This document shows, one piece after another, positions 15,020 to 60,880 of a stretch of 64,000 nt of DNA (positions are counted from its first letter, which is position 1; each line of letters starts with the position of its first letter). The DNA is from Escherichia coli (GTDB lineage: Bacteria > Pseudomonadota > Gammaproteobacteria > Enterobacterales > Enterobacteriaceae), in assembly GCF_017348835.2 (NCBI RefSeq), contig NZ_CP071375.1. One strand, 5' to 3'. Under the pieces are notes generated by a model. That model worked only from the letters and a program-made list of their open reading frames with translations, was not told where the DNA came from and did not search any database. The position numbers were made by a program, and so were the translations under genes.

Positions 15020-15190
15020 TGCATTTTCCGTGCCAACGGTGAAACGCTGATATGACGGGCAATCTGGCGTGATAGGCGAGTAAAAATGACTCGCCTGCTG
15101 CGGGTGGCGAGTCATTTTTACTCATTGAAACTTAAGTCTTTGTGTTACAGCGCAGGGTAAGCGCTGATAAAAGATGGCATGATTTCTGCT
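15020..15190. promoter_or_regulatory. Divergent sigma-54-type promoters for zraP and zraSR
   Basis: Minus strand TGGCACGGAAAATGCA at 15020-15035; plus strand TGGCATGATTTCTGCT at 15175-15190. Both show GG-N10-GC spacing. Confidence 0.55.
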
Positions 15191-21421: not shown

Positions 21422-22963
<1,542 letters not shown>

Positions 22964-27546: not shown

Positions 27547-28476
27547 ATGCCGATTCGTGTGCCGGACGAGCTGCCCGCCGTCAATTTCTTGCGTGAAGAA
27601 AACGTCTTTGTGATGACAACTTCTCGTGCGTCTGGTCAGGAAATTCGTCCACTTAAGGTTCTGATCCTTAACCTGATGCCGAAGAAGATTGAAACTGAAA
27701 ATCAATTTCTGCGCCTGCTTTCAAACTCACCTTTGCAGGTCGATATTCAGCTGTTGCGCATCGATTCCCGTGAATCGCGCAACACGCCCGCAGAGCATCT
27801 GAACAACTTCTACTGTAACTTTGAAGATATTCAGGAACAGAACTTTGACGGTCTGATTGTAACCGGTGCGCCGCTGGGCCTGGTGGAGTTTAATGATGTC
27901 GCTTACTGGCCGCAGATCAAACAGGTGCTGGAGTGGTCGAAAGATCACGTCACCTCGACGCTGTTTGTCTGCTGGGCGGTACAGGCCGCGCTCAATATCC
28001 TCTACGGCATTCCTAAGCAAACTCGCACCGACAAACTCTCTGGCGTTTACGAGCATCATATTCTCCATCCTCATGCGCTTCTGACGCGTGGCTTTGATGA
28101 TTCATTCCTGGCACCACATTCGCGCTATGCTGACTTTCCGGCAGCGTTGATTCGTGATTATACCGATCTGGAAATTCTGGCAGAGACAGAAGAAGGAGAT
28201 GCGTATCTGTTTGCCAGCAAAGACAAGCGTATCGCCTTTGTGACGGGGCATCCGGAATACGACGCACATACGCTGGCGCAGGAATATTTCCGCGATGAGG
28301 AAGCCGGACTAAAACCGGATGTACCGTATAACTATTTTCCGCACAACGATCCGCAAAACAAACCGCGAGCGAGCTGGCGTAGTCACGGTAATTTGCTATT
28401 TACCAACTGGCTCAACTATTACGTCTACCAGATCACGCCATACGATCTGCGCCGTATGAATCCAACGCTGGATTAA
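27547..28476 (+). CDS. metA: Homoserine O-succinyltransferase
   Basis: 309-aa [26 protein letters not shown]... Confidence 0.95.
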
Positions 28477-28482
28477 TCCTTA

Positions 28483-28510
28483 CAGCTCCCGAAACTTCAT
28501 TCGGGAGCTG
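28483..28510. terminator. Hairpin between convergent metA and the dehydratase gene
   Basis: cagctcccgaa-acttca-ttcgggagctg, 11-bp stem. Confidence 0.6.
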
Positions 28511-28516
28511 TCTCTG

Positions 28517-29704
28517 TCAGGCCATCCGACAAGCTACTGGTGAATAATCGAAGGCTTTATAGGTCAGAACAAACTCTTTATGCCCCAGCCGCTCTGCGCT
28601 ACAAAGTTTACCGCTGCTGACTTCCTCAATGCAGTGCAACATATCGCTTGCGACATCATCAAGCGATGCACCTTCACTGATAATCCTGCCAGCATTAATA
28701 TCCATATCATCCGCCATATTGGCCCAGGTTTGTGGGTTGTTACAGACTTTAATCACTGGCGCAATTACGGAGCCGATCACTGAACCTCGTCCGGTGGTAA
28801 ACAAAATCATATGACATCCGGTAGCGATAAGTTCCATCGCTTCTGATGAGTCATTGATGTTGGGATAGCCGAAACGCGCTTCGCCGTCGGGAACCACATC
28901 CATCAGATACAGACCAGGGTAAGGGGCATGTTCTGTCGGGAGTAAAACGCCCTGAATAGGGCTATCGCCTGACTTTGTATAGGCACCCAGCGATTTTTCT
29001 TCTTGCGTGGTTAACCCGCCGACGGCGTTACCGTTAGAAAAACTGCCTAAACCCATTGTCGCGTAATAGCGTTTAGCTTTATCCATTGCTGCATCAATCG
29101 CCTCTCTGGCCGCAGGTGTCGCCGCTCGCGCCATCATGTGGCCTTCACAACCAATCAACTCGCCGCTCTCTTCAAAAATGCAGGTCGCGCCTTGTGCGAG
29201 GAGTCGATCAAACGCGCGACCTACGGCAGGATTGCCCGTAATGCCGCTGGTGCCGTCGGAACCGCCGCAAATCGTACCAATAACTAAATCACTGAACGCA
29301 ATCGGGCGAACCGCCACCTGCTTAATTTGCGCCAGCATCTCTGTGACACAAACTTTGCCCCGTTTGATGGTTTCTGTAGTTCCCTTATTTTCCTGGATAA
29401 CCAGCTTATGGCATGGGCGACCACTGGCGATGACATCTTCATAAAGTTTATCGCGATCAAAGTTTTCGCAGCCGAGGGCGATAATCAACACCGCACCAAC
29501 ATTGGGATGGGTCGCCAGTCCTTTTACCAGTCGGTAGCCGTAGTCCGTGGGGTAACAGCCGGAAAAACCAAAATACTGCACGTCTTCATTTGTGAAAGAC
29601 TCAGCGATCGCTTTGGCAACGTGGCTGGCGCATTCCACCATAAAGATGACTTGTACGCTGTTACGTATACCGACTCTGCCATCTTGTCTCATGTAACCCT
29701 GCAT
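28517..29704 (-). CDS. UxaA-family (altronate/galactarate-type) sugar-acid dehydratase, catalytic large subunit
   Basis: 395-aa ORF resembling the C-terminal catalytic part of altronate dehydratase; start ATG overlaps the upstream stop by 1 nt. Confidence 0.7.
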   Translation of the reverse strand: MQGYMRQDGRVGIRNSVQVIFMVECASHVAKAIAESFTNEDVQYFGFSGCYPTDYGYRLVKGLATHPNVGAVLIIALGCENFDRDKLYEDVIASGRPCHKLVIQENKGTTETIKRGKVCVTEMLAQIKQVAVRPIAFSDLVIGTICGGSDGTSGITGNPAVGRAFDRLLAQGATCIFEESGELIGCEGHMMARAATPAAREAIDAAMDKAKRYYATMGLGSFSNGNAVGGLTTQEEKSLGAYTKSGDSPIQGVLLPTEHAPYPGLYLMDVVPDGEARFGYPNINDSSEAMELIATGCHMILFTTGRGSVIGSVIAPVIKVCNNPQTWANMADDMDINAGRIISEGASLDDVASDMLHCIEEVSSGKLCSAERLGHKEFVLTYKAFDYSPVACRMA

Positions 29705-30024
29705 CAGGCCTCTCCTGCTGGCTCATAGCCCGCATTATCATGGTGGAATACGGCGATATAATCGCTGTTCAGGTTATGGGAATGGATATGCTCGCCAATA
29801 GGGATAGCCTGACTGGCAGAGCCAATGCCTGCGCCATATTTACGAACTTTATCGCCCTGACATAACGTTTCGATTGCCAGCTTATGCCCAAGAGCAACGT
29901 AGCTTTGTGCCACAAATTCACCACCGTCATAGTGGACGCGATCGCCTTGCTGAATATCTTCCAGGGCGACAACGCAGTTATCGAGTTTGTGTAATAGCAG
30001 AGCGCGTTTATTCATGTTCACCAA
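29704..30024 (-). CDS. SAF-domain small subunit of a UxaA-family dehydratase
   Basis: 106-aa ORF resembling the N-terminal SAF domain of UxaA-type dehydratases; TGATG overlap with the large subunit. Confidence 0.65.
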   Translation of the reverse strand: MVNMNKRALLLHKLDNCVVALEDIQQGDRVHYDGGEFVAQSYVALGHKLAIETLCQGDKVRKYGAGIGSASQAIPIGEHIHSHNLNSDYIAVFHHDNAGYEPAGEA

Positions 30025-30071
30025 CTCTCCTGGTTGTGGGGATACAGGCGACCCACAGGCCGCCCGACTGT

Positions 30072-30836
30072 TTAGAAACCGATCAGCGCGCCGCCATCGA
30101 CAATCAGAACCTGACCGCTAACGAAACCGGCAGCATCAGAAGCCAGATAGGTTGCAGCCCAGCCGATATCTTCTGGTTTGCCGAATTTTTTCATCGGTGT
30201 ACGACCAAGAATTTTATTTTTACGCTCATCGTCACCCTCAATGGCTTTGCGCAGCATTGGCGTATCAATCCAGCCCGGAGCGACGCCGTTAACGCGGATC
30301 CCTGCGCCAGAAAGTTCGGTTGCCATGCCATGAATCAGCCCGAGGTAGGCAGACTTCGCGGCAGCATAGCCGGTGACATAAGGTTGACCGAGGAACGATG
30401 TCATTGAGGCGGTAAAAAGCACACAGGCATTGCCATGCTGTTTCATATGAGGGACCAGCGAGCGAGTCAGAGCGAACGCGCCAACGACATGGACATCAAG
30501 AACCGATTCAAAATCAGCGACGCTCATCTCTTCGATCGGTTTTTTACAGTGATTTCCGGCGTTATTGACCAGAATATCGATCTGATTATGCTGGCTCAGA
30601 AGGCCGTCTACCCAACTTTCCGTCTCGTCAGTGTGGGCCACATTGAACTGGCTCCAGGATGCATTTGGCCCCAGCGACTCGGCAGCGTTTTTGGCAGCTT
30701 CGCCATTGAGATCGGCAATGATGACTTTTGCGCCACAGGCGATCATGCATTTAGCCATTGCATAGCCCAGGCCACTGGCGGAACCGGTGATCAGGGCAGT
30801 TTTATTTTCCAGTGAAAAGGGGTTATTCATCGTCAT
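30072..30836 (-). CDS. Short-chain dehydrogenase/reductase (SDR) oxidoreductase
   Basis: 254-aa ORF with TGSASGLG cofactor motif and YAAAK catalytic pair. Confidence 0.8.
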   Translation of the reverse strand: MTMNNPFSLENKTALITGSASGLGYAMAKCMIACGAKVIIADLNGEAAKNAAESLGPNASWSQFNVAHTDETESWVDGLLSQHNQIDILVNNAGNHCKKPIEEMSVADFESVLDVHVVGAFALTRSLVPHMKQHGNACVLFTASMTSFLGQPYVTGYAAAKSAYLGLIHGMATELSGAGIRVNGVAPGWIDTPMLRKAIEGDDERKNKILGRTPMKKFGKPEDIGWAATYLASDAAGFVSGQVLIVDGGALIGF

Positions 30837-30861
30837 GATTTTTTTCTCGTCAGATAAAGGG

Positions 30862-31875
30862 TTAGAGGTCGATTAAAATTTTGGTGAATGCGCCGGGATC
30901 GGCGGCCCAGTCGCTGAACGCCCGATCGGCAGTATCAATCGGGTAGTGCGCGGAAATAATTAGCTCAATGGGGTAGCACTGCTTTTCCATTAAAGAGAGA
31001 ACTGCTCTGAAATCGGCAACGGTGGCGTTGCGGGAACCACGGATATCCAGCTCTTTCATGAGGAAGCGCGCGCTCTCATAATTCACCGGTTTTTTCGCAT
31101 AGCCGACGTACACCACGCGCCCGCAGAAGGCAGCCAGCTCGACTGCCTGCTCGATGGTTTTATCCAGGCCAATGGCTTCAATCACCACCGCAGGACCGCG
31201 GTCTTCGTTCAGTTTCGCCAGGATCTCAGCAACATTTTCGCGTGCGCTGTTGATATACCTTTCGGCACCACATGCCTTCGCTACCGCCTGCTTACGATCG
31301 TCGATATCAATGGCTACCACGCGACCGCCCATCGCGTTAGCTGCTGCAATAGCGCCAAGACCAATCACGCCGCAGCCCATAACGACGACCCATTCGCCAA
31401 CATTGATTTGCGCCCGGCGCGCAGCGTGAAGACCAACGGCTAATGGTTCGACTAACGCCAGTTCGTCACTGGAAAGGGAATTACAGACAATGACTTTATT
31501 GGCCGGAATAGACAGCAGCGGCACCATACCGCCCTGGCGCTGAACGCCAAGAGTCTGGTTGTTTTTACAGGCATTCGGGCGACCGCTCAGACAGGAACTG
31601 CAATGACCGCATTCGGTACAGGGCAGAACAACAACACGATCGCCTTCCAGAATATGTTTAACCTGGCTGCCTGTTTGCAGGATCTTGCCGCCGATTTCAT
31701 GACCGGGAATGCAAGGATACTGCGTGAGGGGATTTAGCCCGCGCCAGGTATTTAAATCTGAACCGCATAAACCAACTCGTTCAACACGAATTAATACATG
31801 GTCGGCTGGGCAATCAGGTTCGGCGATATCAATAAATCGCGTTACGGAACCTTTATCAATGGCTAACGCTTTCAT
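30862..31875 (-). CDS. Zinc-dependent medium-chain alcohol/polyol dehydrogenase
   Basis: Start taken at MKALAIDKG (337 aa); GHEIGG zinc motif, structural-zinc Cys cluster CTECGHCSSC, GCGVIG Rossmann motif. Confidence 0.8.
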   Translation of the reverse strand: MKALAIDKGSVTRFIDIAEPDCPADHVLIRVERVGLCGSDLNTWRGLNPLTQYPCIPGHEIGGKILQTGSQVKHILEGDRVVVLPCTECGHCSSCLSGRPNACKNNQTLGVQRQGGMVPLLSIPANKVIVCNSLSSDELALVEPLAVGLHAARRAQINVGEWVVVMGCGVIGLGAIAAANAMGGRVVAIDIDDRKQAVAKACGAERYINSARENVAEILAKLNEDRGPAVVIEAIGLDKTIEQAVELAAFCGRVVYVGYAKKPVNYESARFLMKELDIRGSRNATVADFRAVLSLMEKQCYPIELIISAHYPIDTADRAFSDWAADPGAFTKILIDL

Positions 31876-31888
31876 ATAAAAACCTTTT

Positions 31889-33187
31889 TTAAAGTGAATC
31901 GGATGAAATAACAGAATCGGTATTTTTAATATTTCTCTTAATAGGTTTAACGCCAAAGGCTACCCCAAGAGCGCCGATTACCCCAATGGCACCCGCAAGA
32001 ATAAATGCAGCAATAAAACTATTGGTATATTGGACAATGAAGCCAGTTAAAATAGGGGCGATAATTCCCGAGGTGTTTGCCAGTAAATGTACAAAACCAC
32101 CAACGCCACCGACTTTATCAGGGGAAATATTATCGGAGACAATTGCCCACGGCGCGGCAGCGGCGAGATACATAAAGAAGATACCCATTGCCATTAACAT
32201 CACTGCATTTGTTACGGAGGCAACCTGACCCGCAAAACTGATACAAATAGCCGAGAGAATTAACCCTCCAACGATAATTAACTTTCTGGCCAGCAGCAGA
32301 TTTTTGGTTTTGCGATATAACCAGTCTGAAAACATACCGCCAATAGCAATACCAACGCTACCAATAATCCACGGAATGGCCGAGGCAATACTCATCTCCT
32401 GAATATTTAGTCCCTTTTCCATTGAGAGATAACTTGGAAACCAGGTTAAAAAGAAATACAGAATATAGTTAATAGAGAAGAATGCCAGGCCAGTGAACAG
32501 AACTATAGGCTGGGTCAGGTAGAAGATAAAAGGCACTTTGGCTGAGTCAGTGCCGTAGCCTGGCGCGCCTTTTTGCGCCTCATCATACTCGGCAATTTCT
32601 TCTTTCGATGTATGAGGGTTATTATGTGGACGATCGGTAAATGCTTTAATCCAGAAAAATGTCCAGATAAAACCCAGAGACATTAAAATGATAAAAGCGA
32701 TGCGCCAGTTCCACATCACCACGATTGCGCCAACAATCGGACCCGCAATCGCACCACCCAAAGGGTTGCCCGCGTTTGCGATGCCCACAGCTCTGGCGCG
32801 CTGATCAAGCGGAACCCAGTTACTAATGCATTTGTTGATCGTCGTACTAATCGGGCCTTCGCTCATCCCGAATAATACGCGCACGATAAACAAAGATATA
32901 TAACCGAAAGCGAGGCCAGTCAGCCCACAGAACAATGACCAGGAAAGCATTGCAATGGCAAAAACTTTGCGGGGACCATAGAGATCGGATAAATAGCCAC
33001 CAACAAAGTTAAATAATGCATAACCAAAGAAAAAACTACTCAGCATAATCCCAACTTCGGCTGGGTTTAGGCCAAAATGATCTTTGATATAGGGCATTGC
33101 CACAGAAAATGCCGCACGATCGAGATAATTAATTATTCCAGCGATAAACAGCAGGAATAATATTTTGGAATGCTGTCGTTTGAACAT
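31889..33187 (-). CDS. MFS transporter, anion:cation symporter type (hexuronate/aldonate-like)
   Basis: 432-aa ORF with many hydrophobic segments and NYLDRAAFSVAMP motif near the N-terminus; AT-rich coding sequence. Confidence 0.75.
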   Translation of the reverse strand: MFKRQHSKILFLLFIAGIINYLDRAAFSVAMPYIKDHFGLNPAEVGIMLSSFFFGYALFNFVGGYLSDLYGPRKVFAIAMLSWSLFCGLTGLAFGYISLFIVRVLFGMSEGPISTTINKCISNWVPLDQRARAVGIANAGNPLGGAIAGPIVGAIVVMWNWRIAFIILMSLGFIWTFFWIKAFTDRPHNNPHTSKEEIAEYDEAQKGAPGYGTDSAKVPFIFYLTQPIVLFTGLAFFSINYILYFFLTWFPSYLSMEKGLNIQEMSIASAIPWIIGSVGIAIGGMFSDWLYRKTKNLLLARKLIIVGGLILSAICISFAGQVASVTNAVMLMAMGIFFMYLAAAAPWAIVSDNISPDKVGGVGGFVHLLANTSGIIAPILTGFIVQYTNSFIAAFILAGAIGVIGALGVAFGVKPIKRNIKNTDSVISSDSL

Positions 33188-33254
33188 AGCAAGTCCTGCA
33201 TAAATAATTTATGTGAATAGTGGTAGGGTAGAATTAATAATTTAAATATATGAT

Positions 33255-33941
33255 CTACATCACACCGAACTTTTCAAATACTTCCACGGTGCTCATGCCA
33301 TTTTTTATCGCCAGACGAACATCACTTTCGGTTGCGACTTTATTCAGTGCTTCAGCTATTACCTCCTTTTCAACTTCTTTTGGAATAACTAAAAGACCAT
33401 CGCAGTCGCCATAAATAATATCGCCGGGATTTATCACCACACCGCAAACTTCAACCGGGACGTTATAATCAATGACTTTTCCTCGCGGCCCCTGATCCTG
33501 AGCATAAGTACCATAACTAAATGTGGGGAAATTAATATCAAGAATTTCTTTAGAGTCCCGGACATAACCATCAAGAACAGCACCGGCGGCCTTAAGATGC
33601 ATAGCGCGAGTGGACATTAAACCGCCCCATAATGCGTAACGTAGCGAACTTCCTGTCGCAATATAAACATCGTTTTCTTTCAGCGAATCCAGCGCCTCAA
33701 ACATAATACCGAACGGTTTTTTACCAATTGCTGTATTCCCCGACGATGAGTGCAACTCATAAACATCGGCTTCAAGAACAGGCATAGCCCGCCCTGCGAG
33801 AACCATACTGGAGTGTAAAGGTTTCATTGAAGGAGAAACAAACTGATGCAAATATCCTTTGGTATCAAGAATATCGCCAACAACGGCAGTAAATAACTGC
33901 GTACGCATCAACTGAAAAAGTTCCTTGTCATTGTTCCACAT
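33255..33941 (-). CDS. RraA-like / class II aldolase-decarboxylase family protein
   Basis: 228-aa ORF; length and sequence resemble the RraA/HMG-CHA aldolase fold rather than 161-aa RraA itself. Confidence 0.6.
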   Translation of the reverse strand: MWNNDKELFQLMRTQLFTAVVGDILDTKGYLHQFVSPSMKPLHSSMVLAGRAMPVLEADVYELHSSSGNTAIGKKPFGIMFEALDSLKENDVYIATGSSLRYALWGGLMSTRAMHLKAAGAVLDGYVRDSKEILDINFPTFSYGTYAQDQGPRGKVIDYNVPVEVCGVVINPGDIIYGDCDGLLVIPKEVEKEVIAEALNKVATESDVRLAIKNGMSTVEVFEKFGVM

Positions 33942-33992
33942 AATTAACGATCCTGAATTGTAGTGAGGAGGTGTGAACAGAGACTAGAGTAG

Positions 33993-34025
33993 AACCTATA
34001 AACCTGTCAAACAGGTTTATAGGTT
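33993..34025. promoter_or_regulatory. Perfect 15-bp inverted repeat, candidate operator in the divergent promoter region
   Basis: AACCTATAAACCTGT-caa-ACAGGTTTATAGGTT, 52 bp upstream of the RraA-like gene start and ~210 bp upstream of the GntR-type regulator gene. Confidence 0.55.
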
Positions 34026-34236
34026 GAAGAGTGTAAACGATCGCACTCTGCGAGCCTCTTCACAATTTCAGCTATGGTTTACTGCGATCGCTTTTCAACC
34101 GGATGCGTCCTATCGCTGCTACGCCTTTTTCGGTAACATACGAACCAAAGGTAGGAGGGATTATCTGTAACGCTATGATTTTTAAGTTTTAGATAAGATA
34201 TGTTGCGGCTGAAACAGGTAATATCTGCTCGGTAAA

Positions 34237-34965
34237 TTGATGGCAAGAATGATGACAACGAAAATTCAGCTAGAAAGTAACACGCTCTCAGCCCAGGTAC
34301 GAGACTACATACTGTCGTTAATTGCGCGGCAAAAGTTAACCGTCGGGATGCCGGTGCCCAGTGAAATGCAACTTACCCAGGAACTTGGCGTCAGTAAGGG
34401 CGTTGTCCGTGAGGCCTATCGTTCACTTGCCGCCCTTGGAATACTCGAAACCAAAAGTGGTAAAGTGCCACGCATTAAAGCCTTTGATTCTAGCGTGTTG
34501 CAGGTCATTTTTTCCTTTGCGACGCTGACCGAGCAGGTCAGTTCTTCACAGATACTTGCCGCCAGACGTTGGCTGGAAGCCGGATGCGTACAAATGGCGG
34601 CGCTCAATGGAGATGAAGAGGATTTTGCTGCGCTGAAGCAAGAAATGTCGTTGATACGCGAAGAGTTTTCTGACACCGAGCGTTTCCTGGAACATGATTT
34701 AAATTTCCATTTGCTGTTATCGCAGGCATCTAAAAATCCTTTATTCAGCATTCTGTTGCAGGCTTTACACACCCAGTTAACCCACTCAATGCGAGCGGGT
34801 CTGGAAGCACAACGCAATAATCATGAATATGAGCGTGGGATAATTGCATTGCACCAACGTGTTTGTGACTGTGTTTGTAATCGCGATGCTGAAGGTGCGA
34901 TGAAAGCCATGGATGAGCATTTCAACCTCTCTTCTGATGCTTTAAACAATCAGTCTCCTCTTTAA
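34237..34965 (+). CDS. GntR/FadR-family transcriptional regulator
   Basis: 242-aa ORF with N-terminal winged-HTH (QLTQELGVSKGVVREAYRSLAALGILE) and a C-terminal helical ligand domain; divergent from the catabolic genes. Confidence 0.8.
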   Translation: MMARMMTTKIQLESNTLSAQVRDYILSLIARQKLTVGMPVPSEMQLTQELGVSKGVVREAYRSLAALGILETKSGKVPRIKAFDSSVLQVIFSFATLTEQVSSSQILAARRWLEAGCVQMAALNGDEEDFAALKQEMSLIREEFSDTERFLEHDLNFHLLLSQASKNPLFSILLQALHTQLTHSMRAGLEAQRNNHEYERGIIALHQRVCDCVCNRDAEGAMKAMDEHFNLSSDALNNQSPL

Positions 34966-34989
34966 TTAAGCGATTCAGCACCTTATCTC

Positions 34990-35013
34990 AGGCACCTTCG
35001 GGTGCCTTTTTTG
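34990..35013 (+). terminator. Rho-independent terminator after the GntR-type regulator gene
   Basis: aggcacc-ttcg-ggtgcct followed by TTTTTT. Confidence 0.8.
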
Positions 35014-35213
35014 TACCCGAAACGCCCTTCATAAAGTGAATGTTTTTTATTTATATTGTTATCAATAAGTTATCAAGTATTTTTAATTAAAATGGAAATT
35101 GTTTTTGATTTTGCATTTTAAATGAGTAGTCTTAGTTGTGCTGAACGAAAAGCGCACAACGATCCTTCGTTCACAGTGGGGAAGTTTTCGGATCCATGAC
35201 GAGGAGCTGCACG

Positions 35214-59950: not shown

Positions 59951-60880
59951 TTATTCTTGTGCACTTCCGCTGATTTCATTTTGTATATGCGTTGCAATAT
60001 CGCAATTGGTTGCCGCTTGTGAACTAAATATCATCTTCTCACGCGAATACACCGCAAACTTATCTGCCAGGTTTGAAGCAAACACCTTGCTGGCATTTTC
60101 TGCTAGCAAATCGGTAACGATATCATGGTGATTTTTATCCACTTTGCGGGCGATATTTCCCGCCTCTTTGTCCTTATTATACCCTTCGTTGGTGCTTTCC
60201 CAGCTTAATGCCGCTGAGGTGGTTTTTATCATGACTTCTGTTCGGTAGCCTGCATCTTTGAGTTTTTTTAATGTTTGTAGCGGCGTAGCGGCATTACGAA
60301 ATGTTCCTTCGACAACAATATTGAGTTTATTGGCTATGGCCCTCTCTATTGCACGTTCGACCGTTTCGCCGGAAAATTTTGCCGTATGGGTAACAAAATC
60401 GTCGCCATAAGTTTGATATATATAATTAAAATCAGGGTGTAGAAATCTGAAATCATCACCATTAATAATCATTATATTATTCTTTGTTTCCCTTTTTGCT
60501 AATTCGATTAGGGCGGATTTTCCGGCTCCTGGTTGTCCACCTAAAACAAAACCAATGGGACTCTGCTGGGATGTGACGTCATGGTTTGTCAGACGCTGCC
60601 AAATAGAATCAAAAGACGCTTTATTTTCTGAATGCGCAGTATTATTAAATTCACGCTGATACTTTTTTCTGACCTGCTGGAGGCGTAACTTTCCCTGTGT
60701 AAAATCAACAAGTTCTGCTGGAGTGGAATAAAGATTGTCGCGATAGCTGACTAATTGTGATAGCTCATCGTCTGAGTCCTGAACTTGTGAGGAAAAACAA
60801 CTGTCGACGATATTTGATAAAAACGCGATGCACTGACTGGTGCCGTTTAAAAGTGCATCTTTTTCCATTAAAGTAGCCAT
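59951..60880 (-). CDS. Zeta-toxin-family kinase with ~100-aa N-terminal extension (EzeT-like)
   Basis: 309 aa from ATG 60880 with AGGAG RBS; Walker A GGQPGAGKS ~115 residues from the N-terminus; AT-rich codon usage. Confidence 0.65.
   Translation of the reverse strand: MATLMEKDALLNGTSQCIAFLSNIVDSCFSSQVQDSDDELSQLVSYRDNLYSTPAELVDFTQGKLRLQQVRKKYQREFNNTAHSENKASFDSIWQRLTNHDVTSQQSPIGFVLGGQPGAGKSALIELAKRETKNNIMIINGDDFRFLHPDFNYIYQTYGDDFVTHTAKFSGETVERAIERAIANKLNIVVEGTFRNAATPLQTLKKLKDAGYRTEVMIKTTSAALSWESTNEGYNKDKEAGNIARKVDKNHHDIVTDLLAENASKVFASNLADKFAVYSREKMIFSSQAATNCDIATHIQNEISGSAQE

What the first reader, a model, noticed from the sequence alone, without database searches (positions are those of the whole stretch)
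33993..34025. Perfect 15-bp inverted repeat in the divergent promoter region of the sugar-acid cluster
AACCTATAAACCTGT-CAA-ACAGGTTTATAGGTT is a 33-nt perfect palindrome between the catabolic genes and the divergent GntR-type regulator gene. Such dyads are typical operators for dimeric GntR/FadR repressors. A perfect site of this length is unlikely by chance.
Basis: seen in the sequence. Interest (0 to 1): 0.45.

Follow-up and report, generated by a model that had tools for sequence, protein, structure and literature searches.

The report
Operator of a sugar-acid gene cluster
The perfect 33-bp palindrome is real and is almost certainly the DNA site where the neighbouring FadR/GntR-type regulator binds to switch off an uncharacterised sugar-acid operon; this is an ordinary kind of bacterial control element, here in an unusually clean form.

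Summary
The dyad AACCTATAAACCTGT-CAA-ACAGGTTTATAGGTT is at 33993-34025 exactly as described. It is single-copy and far beyond chance.

It lies in the 298-bp gap between an RraA-like/MFS/Zn-ADH/SDR/split-UxaA operon (minus strand) and a divergent FadR-subfamily (GntR wHTH + FCD) regulator gene. Both sit in a rare 6.5-kb island between metA and aceB.

- **Conservation.** The core CCTGT-N3-ACAGG is present next to every regulator orthologue of 38% identity or more that I fetched, except two. These span Escherichia, Citrobacter, Serratia, Sodalis, Aquitalea, Pelomonas and Steroidobacter. The flanks diverge, and regulators of 34% identity or less lack the core.
- **Specificity.** A matrix built from the orthologous sites alone picks this site as the only strong hit in 64 kb (46.7 bits; next best 15.6).
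- **Family fit.** The core fits the FadR-subfamily GT-N3-AC rule. The outer CCTAT/ATAGG boxes match the auxiliary half-sites described for this family.
- **Promoter overlap.** On the operon strand the centre reads TTGACA, with TAnnnT 17-18 nt downstream in 13 of 15 sites. The operator therefore appears to contain the -35 element of the catabolic promoter, which implies repression by occlusion.
- **Activator.** A CRP-like site lies upstream at a conserved offset.

Binding, effector and transcription start are untested.

The parts
33993..34025 (.). 33-bp perfect dyad, the proposed operator. It has four boxes at 8-bp spacing: CCTAT, CCTGT | ACAGG, ATAGG.
   Evidence: It is 100% identical in Citrobacter freundii where the flanks are 70-74% identical, and 88-91% identical in more distant loci where the flanks are 42-53% identical. 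PWM score is 46.7 bits against 15.6 for the next best hit.
34001..34017 (.). Inner core AACCTGTCAAACAGGTT, a canonical-length FadR-type palindrome with GT-N3-AC.
   Evidence: CCTGT/ACAGG is invariant or nearly so in 19 non-redundant sites. It is the only invariant block in the alignment of seven intergenic regions.
33995..33999 (.). Left outer auxiliary box CCTAT. It is a direct repeat of the inner CCTGT box, 8 bp further out.
   Evidence: CCTAT or CCTGT is present in most Enterobacterales sites, degenerate in some, and absent in Betaproteobacteria. It matches the 'additional half-sites' of PMC4494728.
34019..34023 (.). Right outer auxiliary box ATAGG.
   Evidence: ATAGG or ACAGG occurs in 9-10 of 13 Enterobacterales sites.
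34005..34010 (-). TTGACA on the operon strand, the inferred -35 hexamer of the catabolic promoter. It is formed by the spacer plus half of the right box.
   Evidence: The spacer orientation is conserved. TTGACA always points at a downstream operon.
33981..33986 (-). TAGTCT, the inferred -10 hexamer, 18 nt after TTGACA. The predicted transcription start is near 33974.
   Evidence: TAnnnT lies 17 or 18 nt after TTGACA in 13 of 15 sites, against a 1.5% background per position. The same pattern appears in metagenome sites next to regulators. The consensus scan did not call it because it matches only 3 of 6 positions.
34049..34064 (.). CRP-like site TGCGAGCCTCTTCACA (9 of 10 consensus positions), upstream of the inferred catabolic promoter.
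   Evidence: A CRP-like site lies 46.5-47.5 nt from the dyad centre (window, Citrobacter, L005, TRAP-type loci) or 36.5 nt (Serratia, Sodalis, Acerihabitans). With a start near 33974 the window site would be centred near -82.5.
28517..33941 (-). Proposed target operon: RraA-like (33255-33941), MFS transporter similar to the D-galactonate transporter subfamily, score below its cut-off (31889-33187), Zn-ADH (30862-31875), SDR (30072-30836), and a split UxaA-family dehydratase (SAF 29704-30015; C-terminal part 28517-29704).
   Evidence: The same gene order is found in the orthologous loci.
34240..34965 (+). FadR/GntR-family regulator gene (GntR wHTH + FCD domain), the proposed binder.
   Evidence: The wHTH signature VPSE[MV][QK]...GVS[RK]G..RE...SG[KR].PR is shared by all regulators that have the site and is absent from those that do not.
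28482..28511 (.). GC-rich 12-bp perfect hairpin between the convergent metA and the last operon gene. It is a likely terminator at the distal end of the island.
   Evidence: I13. Not examined further.

Best explanation
The dyad is the operator of the divergently encoded FadR-subfamily regulator.

**Proposed mechanism.** A regulator dimer recognises the inner palindrome AACCTGT-N3-ACAGGTT. The outer CCTAT/ATAGG boxes, 8 bp further out on each side, give extra contacts, probably for further subunits. On the operon strand the centre of the site reads TTGACA and serves as the -35 element of the catabolic promoter: TTGACA, 18 nt, TAGTCT, with a start near 33974. A bound regulator would therefore exclude RNA polymerase and keep the RraA-MFS-ADH-SDR-UxaA operon off. 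A pathway metabolite, probably a sugar acid, would bind the FCD domain and release the regulator. CRP at 34049-34064 probably supplies activation.

**Shown:**
- existence and uniqueness of the site;
- the family of the regulator;
- conservation of the site and its co-occurrence with the regulator;
- the conserved TTGACA-17/18-TAnnnT geometry.

**Inferred:**
- binding and repression (rather than activation);
- stoichiometry;
- the transcription start;
- the role of CRP;
- the effector.
For: 1. **Regulator family.** The neighbouring gene has GntR + FCD domains.
2. **Family signature.** The core has GT-N3-AC in an A/T-rich palindrome, as in DgoR, ExuR, FadR, GlcC, LldR and PdhR sites (PMC4494728).
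3. **Footprint.** The exact core CCTGTNNNACAGG lies next to the regulator gene in Escherichia, Citrobacter, Serratia, Sodalis, Acerihabitans, Entomohabitans, Aquitalea, Pelomonas and Steroidobacter loci, plus a one-mismatch version in two further loci. There are 23 exact cores in 367 kb of fetched loci. Every one listed lies in a regulator-adjacent or lar intergenic region; the five duplicate loci not scanned there are presumed alike. About 0.35 are expected by chance.
4. **Flanks diverge.** They are 42-74% identical while the dyad is 88-100% identical. The core is the only invariant block in the intergenic alignment.
5. **Co-variation with the protein.** Regulators of 34% identity or less, which have a different wing and recognition signature, have no site.
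6. **Independent matrix.** A matrix built without the window and its Citrobacter twin scores the dyad 46.7 bits against 15.6 for the next best in 64 kb.
7. **Reverse test.** 22 of 120 metagenome hits to the 17-bp core lie 332 nt or less from a regulator homologue, against one homologue in the remaining 98 loci.
8. **Second target.** A second four-box site lies between larBCE and MFS-larA, next to the cluster, in three Sodalis/Acerihabitans genomes.
9. **Promoter geometry.** TAnnnT lies 17-18 nt after TTGACA in 13 of 15 sites against a 1.5% background.
10. **Auxiliary boxes have precedent.** Extra boxes beside the palindrome are a described feature of this family.
Against: - No experiment exists: no binding, footprint, transcription start or expression data.
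- The box is CTGT/ACAG rather than the family's TKGT/ACMA. The first position differs.
- In the TRAP-type paralogous clusters (661 of 5426 E. coli genomes) and in the Aquitalea locus L019 the same kind of site has no TTGACA. In the TRAP-type loci the spacer is TTTAA and the centre is only 23-29 nt from the RraA start codon; in L019 the centre is 38 nt from it. The '-35 inside the operator' layout is therefore not universal.
- The window's -10 candidate TAGTCT is weak, and the consensus scan found no promoter.
- Two regulators with the same wHTH signature (L018 Martelella, L020 Scleromatobacter) have no site in the DNA fetched.
- 98 of 120 metagenome hits have no regulator nearby. Most are probably chance or unrelated elements.
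- Some FadR-family proteins, such as GlcC, are activators (from memory), so the sign of regulation is inferred from position only.
Confidence: 0.85

Rival explanations
1. The site is bound by the adjacent regulator, but the regulator acts as an activator or dual regulator. Alternatively the site mainly autoregulates the regulator gene, which would be transcribed from a promoter with its -10 in the left arm: TGAACA (33974-33979), 17 nt, TATAAA (33997-34002), on the plus strand.
For: The arms contain TATAAA on both strands, and a 4/6 + 5/6 promoter can be read on the plus strand (sequence). In the Betaproteobacteria-like loci the TTGACA promoter points at the regulator gene itself, 43-107 nt upstream. 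From memory, some FadR-family members activate.
Against: The plus-strand -35 is not conserved even in C. freundii, where it reads ATGCAT/TGCATT. A perfect TTGACA inside the site argues against a need for an activator there. The site is always nearer the catabolic gene than the regulator gene in Enterobacterales. Sugar-acid FadR-type regulators such as DgoR are repressors that overlap the promoter (PMC11705089).
Confidence: 0.1
2. The palindrome acts as a nucleic-acid hairpin: an RNA stem-loop (terminator, attenuator or stabiliser) or a DNA cruciform, not a protein site.
For: As RNA it folds to -20.1 kcal/mol, z = -4.5 against shuffles.
Against: There is no U-tract on either strand and the terminator scan did not call it. 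Across orthologues the box sequences are kept invariant. Pair 6/28 alternates A:T and G:C, as a symmetric binding site also allows. Linker pairs are broken in up to 6 of 13 Enterobacterales sites (pair 10/24) and the outermost in 7 of 13. Sequence, not pairing, is conserved. There is no Rfam match. Under the best-supported promoter the dyad is not transcribed into the operon mRNA.
Confidence: 0.03
3. It is the site of another protein (a global regulator, a recombinase or a nucleoid protein), or a remnant of a mobile element such as terminal inverted repeats or a MITE, connected with the island's acquisition.
For: The cluster is a rare island: 2 of 5426 complete E. coli genomes carry it. The 17-bp core also occurs in unrelated metagenome contigs, including a repeated element in one sample.
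Against: There is one copy per genome and no second copy or partner in the window. The dyad is internal to the island, not at its edges. It keeps its position next to the regulator in clusters inserted at four or more different chromosomal sites. It does not match the CRP consensus.
Confidence: 0.02

Closest known systems
DgoR operator of the E. coli D-galactonate (dgo) operon
   Same: A FadR-subfamily (FCD) regulator of a sugar-acid pathway. A/T-rich inverted repeats with GT-N3-AC (IR1 core TTGTAGTACAA) overlap the inducible promoter, giving repression that the pathway substrate relieves. Two homodimers are thought to bind (PMC11705089).
   Different: DgoR uses two separate, closely spaced palindromes. 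Here one palindrome is flanked by single auxiliary boxes, giving nested symmetry. The box sequence differs (CCTGT against TTGTA). dgoR is the first gene of its operon, whereas here the regulator is divergent. The regulator scores far below any named NCBIfam equivalog.
FadR-subfamily operators with additional half-site boxes (Suvorova, Korostelev and Gelfand 2015)
   Same: A palindrome with conserved GT/AC pairs 3 nt apart, a weaker box beside it on one or both sides, and a position in a divergon slightly nearer the structural operon (PMC4494728).
   Different: In the window both auxiliary boxes are as good as the core, so the whole 33 bp is perfectly symmetric. The four core 13-mers were not found in that paper's held supplementary files, so this orthologous group does not appear to be among those catalogued there.
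SdhR site (HutC subfamily), a 'palindrome with additional symmetry' TCTTATGTCTTATATAAGACATAAGA
   Same: Each arm is itself a direct repeat of the half-site, as in AACCTAT-AAACCTGT (PMC4494728).
   Different: It belongs to a different GntR subfamily and has a different sequence and spacing.
Atu1419 (Agrobacterium fabrum) and NanR (E. coli), GntR-family regulators that bind as higher oligomers
   Same: They are precedents for more than one dimer engaging a multi-box site (cited in PMC11705089).
   Different: Atu1419 is a tetramer and NanR uses direct GGTATA repeats. Nothing here shows the oligomeric state of this regulator.

Membership tests
FadR-subfamily (GntR family) operator | Palindrome with conserved GT and AC pairs separated by 3 nt (NyGT-N3-ACNy) in an A/T-rich context | tested here: met
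   CCTGT-CAA-ACAGG at 34003-34015, flanked by AA/TT. The consensus is as stated in PMC4494728.
FadR-subfamily (GntR family) operator | TKGT/ACMA boxes | tested here: inconclusive
   The boxes read CTGT/ACAG, so 3 of 4 positions fit. The first position is C, not T, and this is so in all 19 sites. This probably reflects group-specific recognition.
FadR-subfamily (GntR family) operator | Lies in the regulatory region of genes next to a gene for a FadR-subfamily protein | tested here: met
   GntR (PF00392) and FCD (PF07729) domains are in the divergent gene. The site is in the shared 298-bp gap.
FadR-subfamily (GntR family) operator | Site conserved with orthologous regulators in other genomes while the flanks diverge, and lost when the DNA-binding signature changes | tested here: met
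FadR-subfamily (GntR family) operator | Bound by the regulator in vitro or in vivo and released by an effector | not testable with these tools
   Needs EMSA, footprinting or ChIP, plus an effector screen.
Sigma-70 promoter overlapped by the operator | A -35 and a -10 hexamer at 16-18 nt spacing upstream of the regulated gene | tested here: inconclusive
   TTGACA (6/6), 18 nt, TAGTCT (3/6, with A2 and T6). The geometry is conserved in 13 of 15 sites, but the consensus scan called no promoter and no transcription start is mapped.
CRP-binding site (neighbouring element) | TGTGA-N6-TCACA | tested here: inconclusive
   TGCGAGCCTCTTCACA matches 9 of 10 positions. The offset from the dyad is conserved at 46.5-47.5 or 36.5 nt. 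No binding data.
Intrinsic terminator | G+C-rich stem followed by a T-run | tested here: not met
   The stem is A/T-rich and no T-run follows on either strand. It was not called by the scan.
Repeated or mobile element (REP, MITE, IS ends) | Multiple copies per genome, or paired ends flanking an insert | tested here: not met
   One place per genome in the two E. coli genomes that carry it. No other copy in the window.
Known structured RNA (Rfam 15) | Match to a covariance model | tested here: not met
   No match at E of 1 or less in 33800-34400.

The most novel reading that the evidence does not exclude
The four evenly spaced boxes (centres 8 bp apart, oriented > > < <) may be the footprint of a higher-order FadR-family complex, a dimer of dimers or a dimer plus flanking subunits, that covers 33 bp including the -35 element. 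This would differ from the canonical one-dimer, one-palindrome mode. The same regulator family would also tie a UxaA/RraA sugar-acid route to a nickel-pincer LarA-type epimerase module, since a second four-box site lies between larBCE and MFS-larA in Sodalis and Acerihabitans. That would point to the substrate of an uncharacterised LarA homologue.
Probability: 0.3. Interest if true: 0.45.

Novelty: new member of a known kind. Interest (0 to 1): 0.3.

Why it matters
It gives a well-supported operator motif (AACCTGT-N3-ACAGGTT plus auxiliary CCTRT boxes) for an uncharacterised group of FadR-family regulators. These control an uncharacterised sugar-acid-type pathway. The pathway occurs in a rare metA-aceB island (2 of 5426 complete E. 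coli genomes) and, as a TRAP-transporter variant, in about 12% of complete E. coli genomes.

The motif can be used to define the regulon, to design reporter or biosensor constructs, and to look for the inducer and hence the substrate of the pathway. The link to lar genes in Sodalis is a lead for assigning a LarA homologue. In kind, however, it is a standard local-repressor operator.

Tried and rejected
- **Terminator or RNA hairpin.** Rejected. There is no T-run, no Rfam hit, and boxes rather than pairing are conserved.
- **Repeat or mobile element.** Rejected. The 33-mer is single-copy.
- **Further sites in the window.** None found. The only near match to the core, at 22456, lies in the rRNA operon and is within chance expectation. 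The next-best PWM hit scores 15.6 bits, at 60049.
- **Whole-genome regulon scan of strain PE164.** Not possible with these tools.
- **Literature.** No paper was found on this cluster or regulator. The core 13-mers are absent from the supplements of PMC4494728.
- **NCBIfam.** No protein of the cluster reaches an equivalog cut-off, so the substrate stays unknown.
- **Alternative CRP/promoter registers for the window** (CRP at -41.5, -61.5 or -71.5). By my own reading of the sequence, these give no acceptable -10. Only about -82.5 does.
- **Promoter architecture of the TRAP-type loci.** It could not be resolved from sequence.
- **Open-reading-frame test** to separate real from chance metagenome hits. 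It was uninformative because of high G+C content.
- **L018 (Martelella) and L020 (Scleromatobacter).** No site was found in the DNA fetched.

Full report
**Observation.** The window reads AACCTATAAACCTGT-CAA-ACAGGTTTATAGGTT at 33993-34025, with 15-nt arms that are perfectly complementary and a 3-nt spacer. From first principles such a repeat is expected about 6e-4 times in 64 kb, and none appeared in 100 shuffles. It occurs once in the window and once per genome in the only two complete E. coli genomes that contain it.

**Context.** The window is an E. coli-type chromosome segment running rpoC, thi, zraPSR, purHD, an rRNA operon, metA, aceBAK and espL4. Between metA (27547-28476) and aceB lies a 6.5-kb insert that 5424 of 5426 complete E. 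coli genomes lack. Citrobacter freundii carries the insert at the same place.

The insert encodes the following on the minus strand:
- an RraA-like protein (33255-33941);
- an MFS transporter most similar to the D-galactonate transporter subfamily, though below its cut-off (31889-33187);
- a Zn-dependent dehydrogenase;
- an SDR;
- a UxaA-family dehydratase split into SAF and C-terminal parts (down to 28517).

On the plus strand it encodes a 241-aa protein with GntR wHTH and FCD domains, that is, a FadR-subfamily regulator (34240-34965). No protein of the insert reaches the cut-off of any named NCBIfam equivalog, and I found no paper on the cluster. 'Sugar-acid cluster' is therefore reasonable, but the substrate is unknown. 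The dyad centre (34009) is 68 nt from the RraA start codon and about 231-240 nt from the regulator start.

**Comparative test, from regulator to site.** Homologues of the regulator were traced to their contigs. A profile of 16 of them was then used to scan one genome per species.

In every locus with an RraA-like gene divergent from the regulator, the intergenic region contains the exact core CCTGT-N3-ACAGG. These loci are:
- E. coli and C. freundii;
- an unassigned metagenome lineage (L005/L006);
- Serratia, Sodalis ligni, Sodalis sp. and Acerihabitans;
- C. amalonaticus and Entomohabitans;
- E. whittamii, E. albertii and E. coli (the TRAP-type variant);
- Aquitalea.

More distant regulators (38-43% identity; Pelomonas, a Burkholderiales MAG, Steroidobacter) sit in a different gene context. 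They carry the same core with at most one mismatch, 85-104 nt upstream of the regulator gene. L022 also has a second one-mismatch site 193 nt upstream.

Regulators of 34% identity or less have no site. They also differ in the wHTH: sites go with VPSE[MV][QK]...GVS[RK]G..RE...SG[KR].PR, and non-sites with LP.E[KR]EL...QGDGT[YF]V. Two regulators with the 'site' signature, Martelella L018 and Scleromatobacter L020, showed no site in the DNA fetched. In L018 the regulator is the last gene of an operon whose upstream end may lie outside the locus.

In 367 kb of fetched loci there are 23 exact cores. Every one listed lies in one of these regulatory gaps; the five duplicate loci not scanned there are presumed alike. 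About 0.35 are expected by chance.

**Footprint quality.** The dyad stays far more conserved than its flanks:

| Compared with | Dyad identity | Left flank | Right flank |
|---|---|---|---|
| C. freundii (L002) | 33/33 | 70% | 74% |
| L005 | 30/33 | 47% | 53% |
| Serratia (L011) | 29/33 | 42% | 44% |

In a seven-way alignment of the intergenic regions the core is the only invariant block. A position matrix built from 17 orthologous sites, leaving out the window and its Citrobacter twin, scores the window dyad 46.7 bits. The next best position in 64 kb scores 15.6, and the background is -36 +/- 10.

**Reverse test, from site to regulator.** The 17-bp core AACCTGTTTGACAGGTT was searched in metagenome contigs. 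Of the 120 hits returned, 22 lie 332 nt or less from a regulator homologue (32-93% identity over the matched segment, some of them fragments at contig ends), and most sit 43-107 nt upstream on the same strand. In the other 98 loci only one homologue was seen, 6.2 kb from its site. The remaining hits look like chance matches in a very large collection or unrelated elements: coding sequence, a repeat family in one sample, and longer palindromes in low-G+C contigs. A few high-G+C hits with the same downstream CATAGTC may be further regulon members.

**Anatomy.** The inner 17 bp (34001-34017) have the length and the GT-N3-AC signature of FadR-subfamily operators such as those of DgoR, ExuR, FadR, GlcC, LldR and PdhR (PMC4494728). 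The box reads CTGT rather than TKGT.

Each arm also contains a second copy of the box 8 bp further out, CCTAT at 33995-33999 and ATAGG at 34019-34023. Four boxes thus lie at 8-bp intervals, oriented > > < <. The outer boxes read CCTAT or CCTGT in most Enterobacterales sites, are degenerate on one side in some, and are absent in Betaproteobacteria. This fits the weaker 'additional half-sites' reported beside many GntR-family palindromes and proposed to bind extra subunits (PMC4494728). It also fits 'palindromes with additional symmetry' such as the SdhR site.

A second complete four-box site lies between larBCE and MFS-larA, a few kb from the cluster, in Sodalis ligni, Sodalis sp. and Acerihabitans. 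The architecture therefore recurs at an independent target.

**Protein site or hairpin?** The RNA would fold well (-20.1 kcal/mol, z = -4.5). Three things argue against a hairpin:
- No T-run follows on either strand.
- Rfam has no match.
- Across orthologues the five inner pairs are invariant in sequence. Pair 6/28 alternates A:T and G:C, which a symmetric protein site also allows, while linker pairs are often broken, for example pair 10/24 in 6 of 13 Enterobacterales sites.

Sequence, not pairing, is under selection.

**Mechanism.** The 3-nt spacer is asymmetric yet conserved. On the operon strand the centre reads CCTGT-TTG-ACAGG, which contains a perfect -35 hexamer TTGACA (34010 to 34005).

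In 13 of 15 TTGACA-type sites a TAnnnT hexamer follows at 17 or 18 nt, against a background of 1.5% per position. In the window and Citrobacter it is TAGTCT at 18 nt. The remaining sites with TAnnnT are:

| Locus | Hexamer |
|---|---|
| Serratia | TAATTT |
| Sodalis lar site | TAATCT |
| Pelomonas aquatica (L021) | TAATGT |
| Pelomonas sp. KK5 (L023) | TACTCT |
| Burkholderiales MAG | TAGGCT |
| Steroidobacter | TAGATT |
| Sodalis/Acerihabitans catabolic sites | TACCCT or TACTCT |

By eye, many of the 22 regulator-linked metagenome sites show the same pattern; I did not score them. TTGACA always points at a gene or operon: the catabolic operon in Enterobacterales, MFS-larA in Sodalis, and the regulator gene itself in the Betaproteobacteria-like loci.

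I therefore infer that the operator contains the -35 element of its target promoter and that the bound regulator blocks RNA polymerase. This is the same logic as DgoR, whose inverted repeats overlap the dgo promoter (PMC11705089). For the window this predicts a -10 at 33986 to 33981, a start near 33974 and a leader of about 33 nt.

Upstream, TGCGAGCCTCTTCACA (34049-34064) matches the CRP consensus at 9 of 10 positions. A CRP-like site recurs 46.5-47.5 nt or 36.5 nt from the dyad centre in the other lineages, a difference of about one helical turn. With the predicted start these would be near -82.5 and -71.5, which I recall as class I activation positions.

**Caveats.**
- Nothing here has been measured.
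- The window's -10 is weak, and the consensus scan called no promoter.
- In the TRAP-type paralogous cluster, present in 661 of 5426 E. coli genomes, the spacer is TTTAA and the site centre is only 23-29 nt from the RraA start codon. In Aquitalea L019 the centre reads CTTACA and lies 38 nt from it. There the operator must act at or after the transcription start, so the -35 overlap is not universal.
- Whether the window's regulator gene is autoregulated is open. A plus-strand TGAACA-17-TATAAA promoter can be read with its -10 in the left arm, but it is not conserved in Citrobacter.
- The sign of regulation is inferred from position only.

**Comparison and novelty.** This works like the operator of a local FadR-family sugar-acid repressor, with DgoR the closest studied case. 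It meets the testable defining features of that class. It is not a member of any named regulon: the regulator scores far below the NanR, LldR, GlcC, UxuR, PdhR and FadR equivalog cut-offs. The motif was not found in the supplements of the main comparative survey. It is best filed as a new member of a known kind. The least ordinary aspects are the perfect nested four-box symmetry, which may indicate more than one dimer, and the apparent co-regulation of lar genes in Sodalis.

Noticed in passing
window 28477-35195: The whole sugar-acid cluster is a 6.5-kb island inserted between metA and aceB. Only 2 of 5426 complete E. coli genomes carry it, both pig isolates (PE164 and F2_81). Citrobacter freundii has it at the same metA-aceB position with 85-97% protein identity, which suggests exchange by flanking homology.
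   Followed up: partly
window 34049-34064: A CRP-like site, TGCGAGCCTCTTCACA, lies upstream of the inferred catabolic promoter. Its offset from the dyad centre is conserved at 46.5-47.5 or 36.5 nt across lineages.
   Followed up: partly
L007 14203-14235; L008 12778-12810; L012 8549-8581: A second four-box site (AACCTCACAACCTGTTTGACAGGATTACAGGTT) lies between larB-larC-larE (nickel-pincer cofactor synthesis) and an MFS-LarA-like operon, next to the cluster, in Sodalis and Acerihabitans. This implies that a LarA-type 2-hydroxyacid epimerase belongs to the same regulon.
   Followed up: partly
L009, L010, L013, L014, L017 (E. coli, E. whittamii, E. albertii), L015 (Entomohabitans): A paralogous cluster has a TRAP transporter (DctPQM) in place of the MFS transporter and a regulator 62% identical to the window's. 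It is present in 661 of 5426 complete E. coli genomes. In the loci where flanks were read (L009/L010) it lies next to abrB and nei. Its operator has a TTTAA spacer and sits 23-29 nt from the RraA start codon.
   Followed up: partly
window 34212-34219: A lone half-site-like AAACAGGT lies about 25 nt before the regulator start codon. An ACAGG at the equivalent place is shared with the Citrobacter locus and two Sodalis loci in the alignment. It could be a ribosome-binding region or an extra box.
   Followed up: no
window 15078-15123: This is the only other perfect long inverted repeat in the window (18-nt arms, 10-nt gap; GAGTAAAAATGACTCGCC). It lies in the zraS-zraP divergent gap. From memory this is the known ZraR (sigma-54 activator) binding region.
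   Followed up: partly
window 28482-28511: A perfect 12-bp G+C-rich hairpin (ACAGCTCCCGAA / TTCGGGAGCTGT) lies between the convergent metA and the last gene of the island. It is probably a two-way terminator at the island edge.
   Followed up: no
L035, L059, L076, L111 (low-G+C metagenome contigs): The same 17-bp core sits inside a longer palindrome, TCTAAAAACCTGTTTGACAGGTTTTTAGA, followed by TATAAT or TATAAA at promoter spacing. No homologue of this regulator is nearby. This may be the operator of an unrelated regulator that also overlaps a -35 element.
   Followed up: no
window 30862-31956: The mechanical ORF for the Zn-dehydrogenase starts at a TTG that overlaps the MFS gene (364 aa). RefSeq and the orthologues use the internal start, giving 337 aa (30862-31875).
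   Followed up: yes
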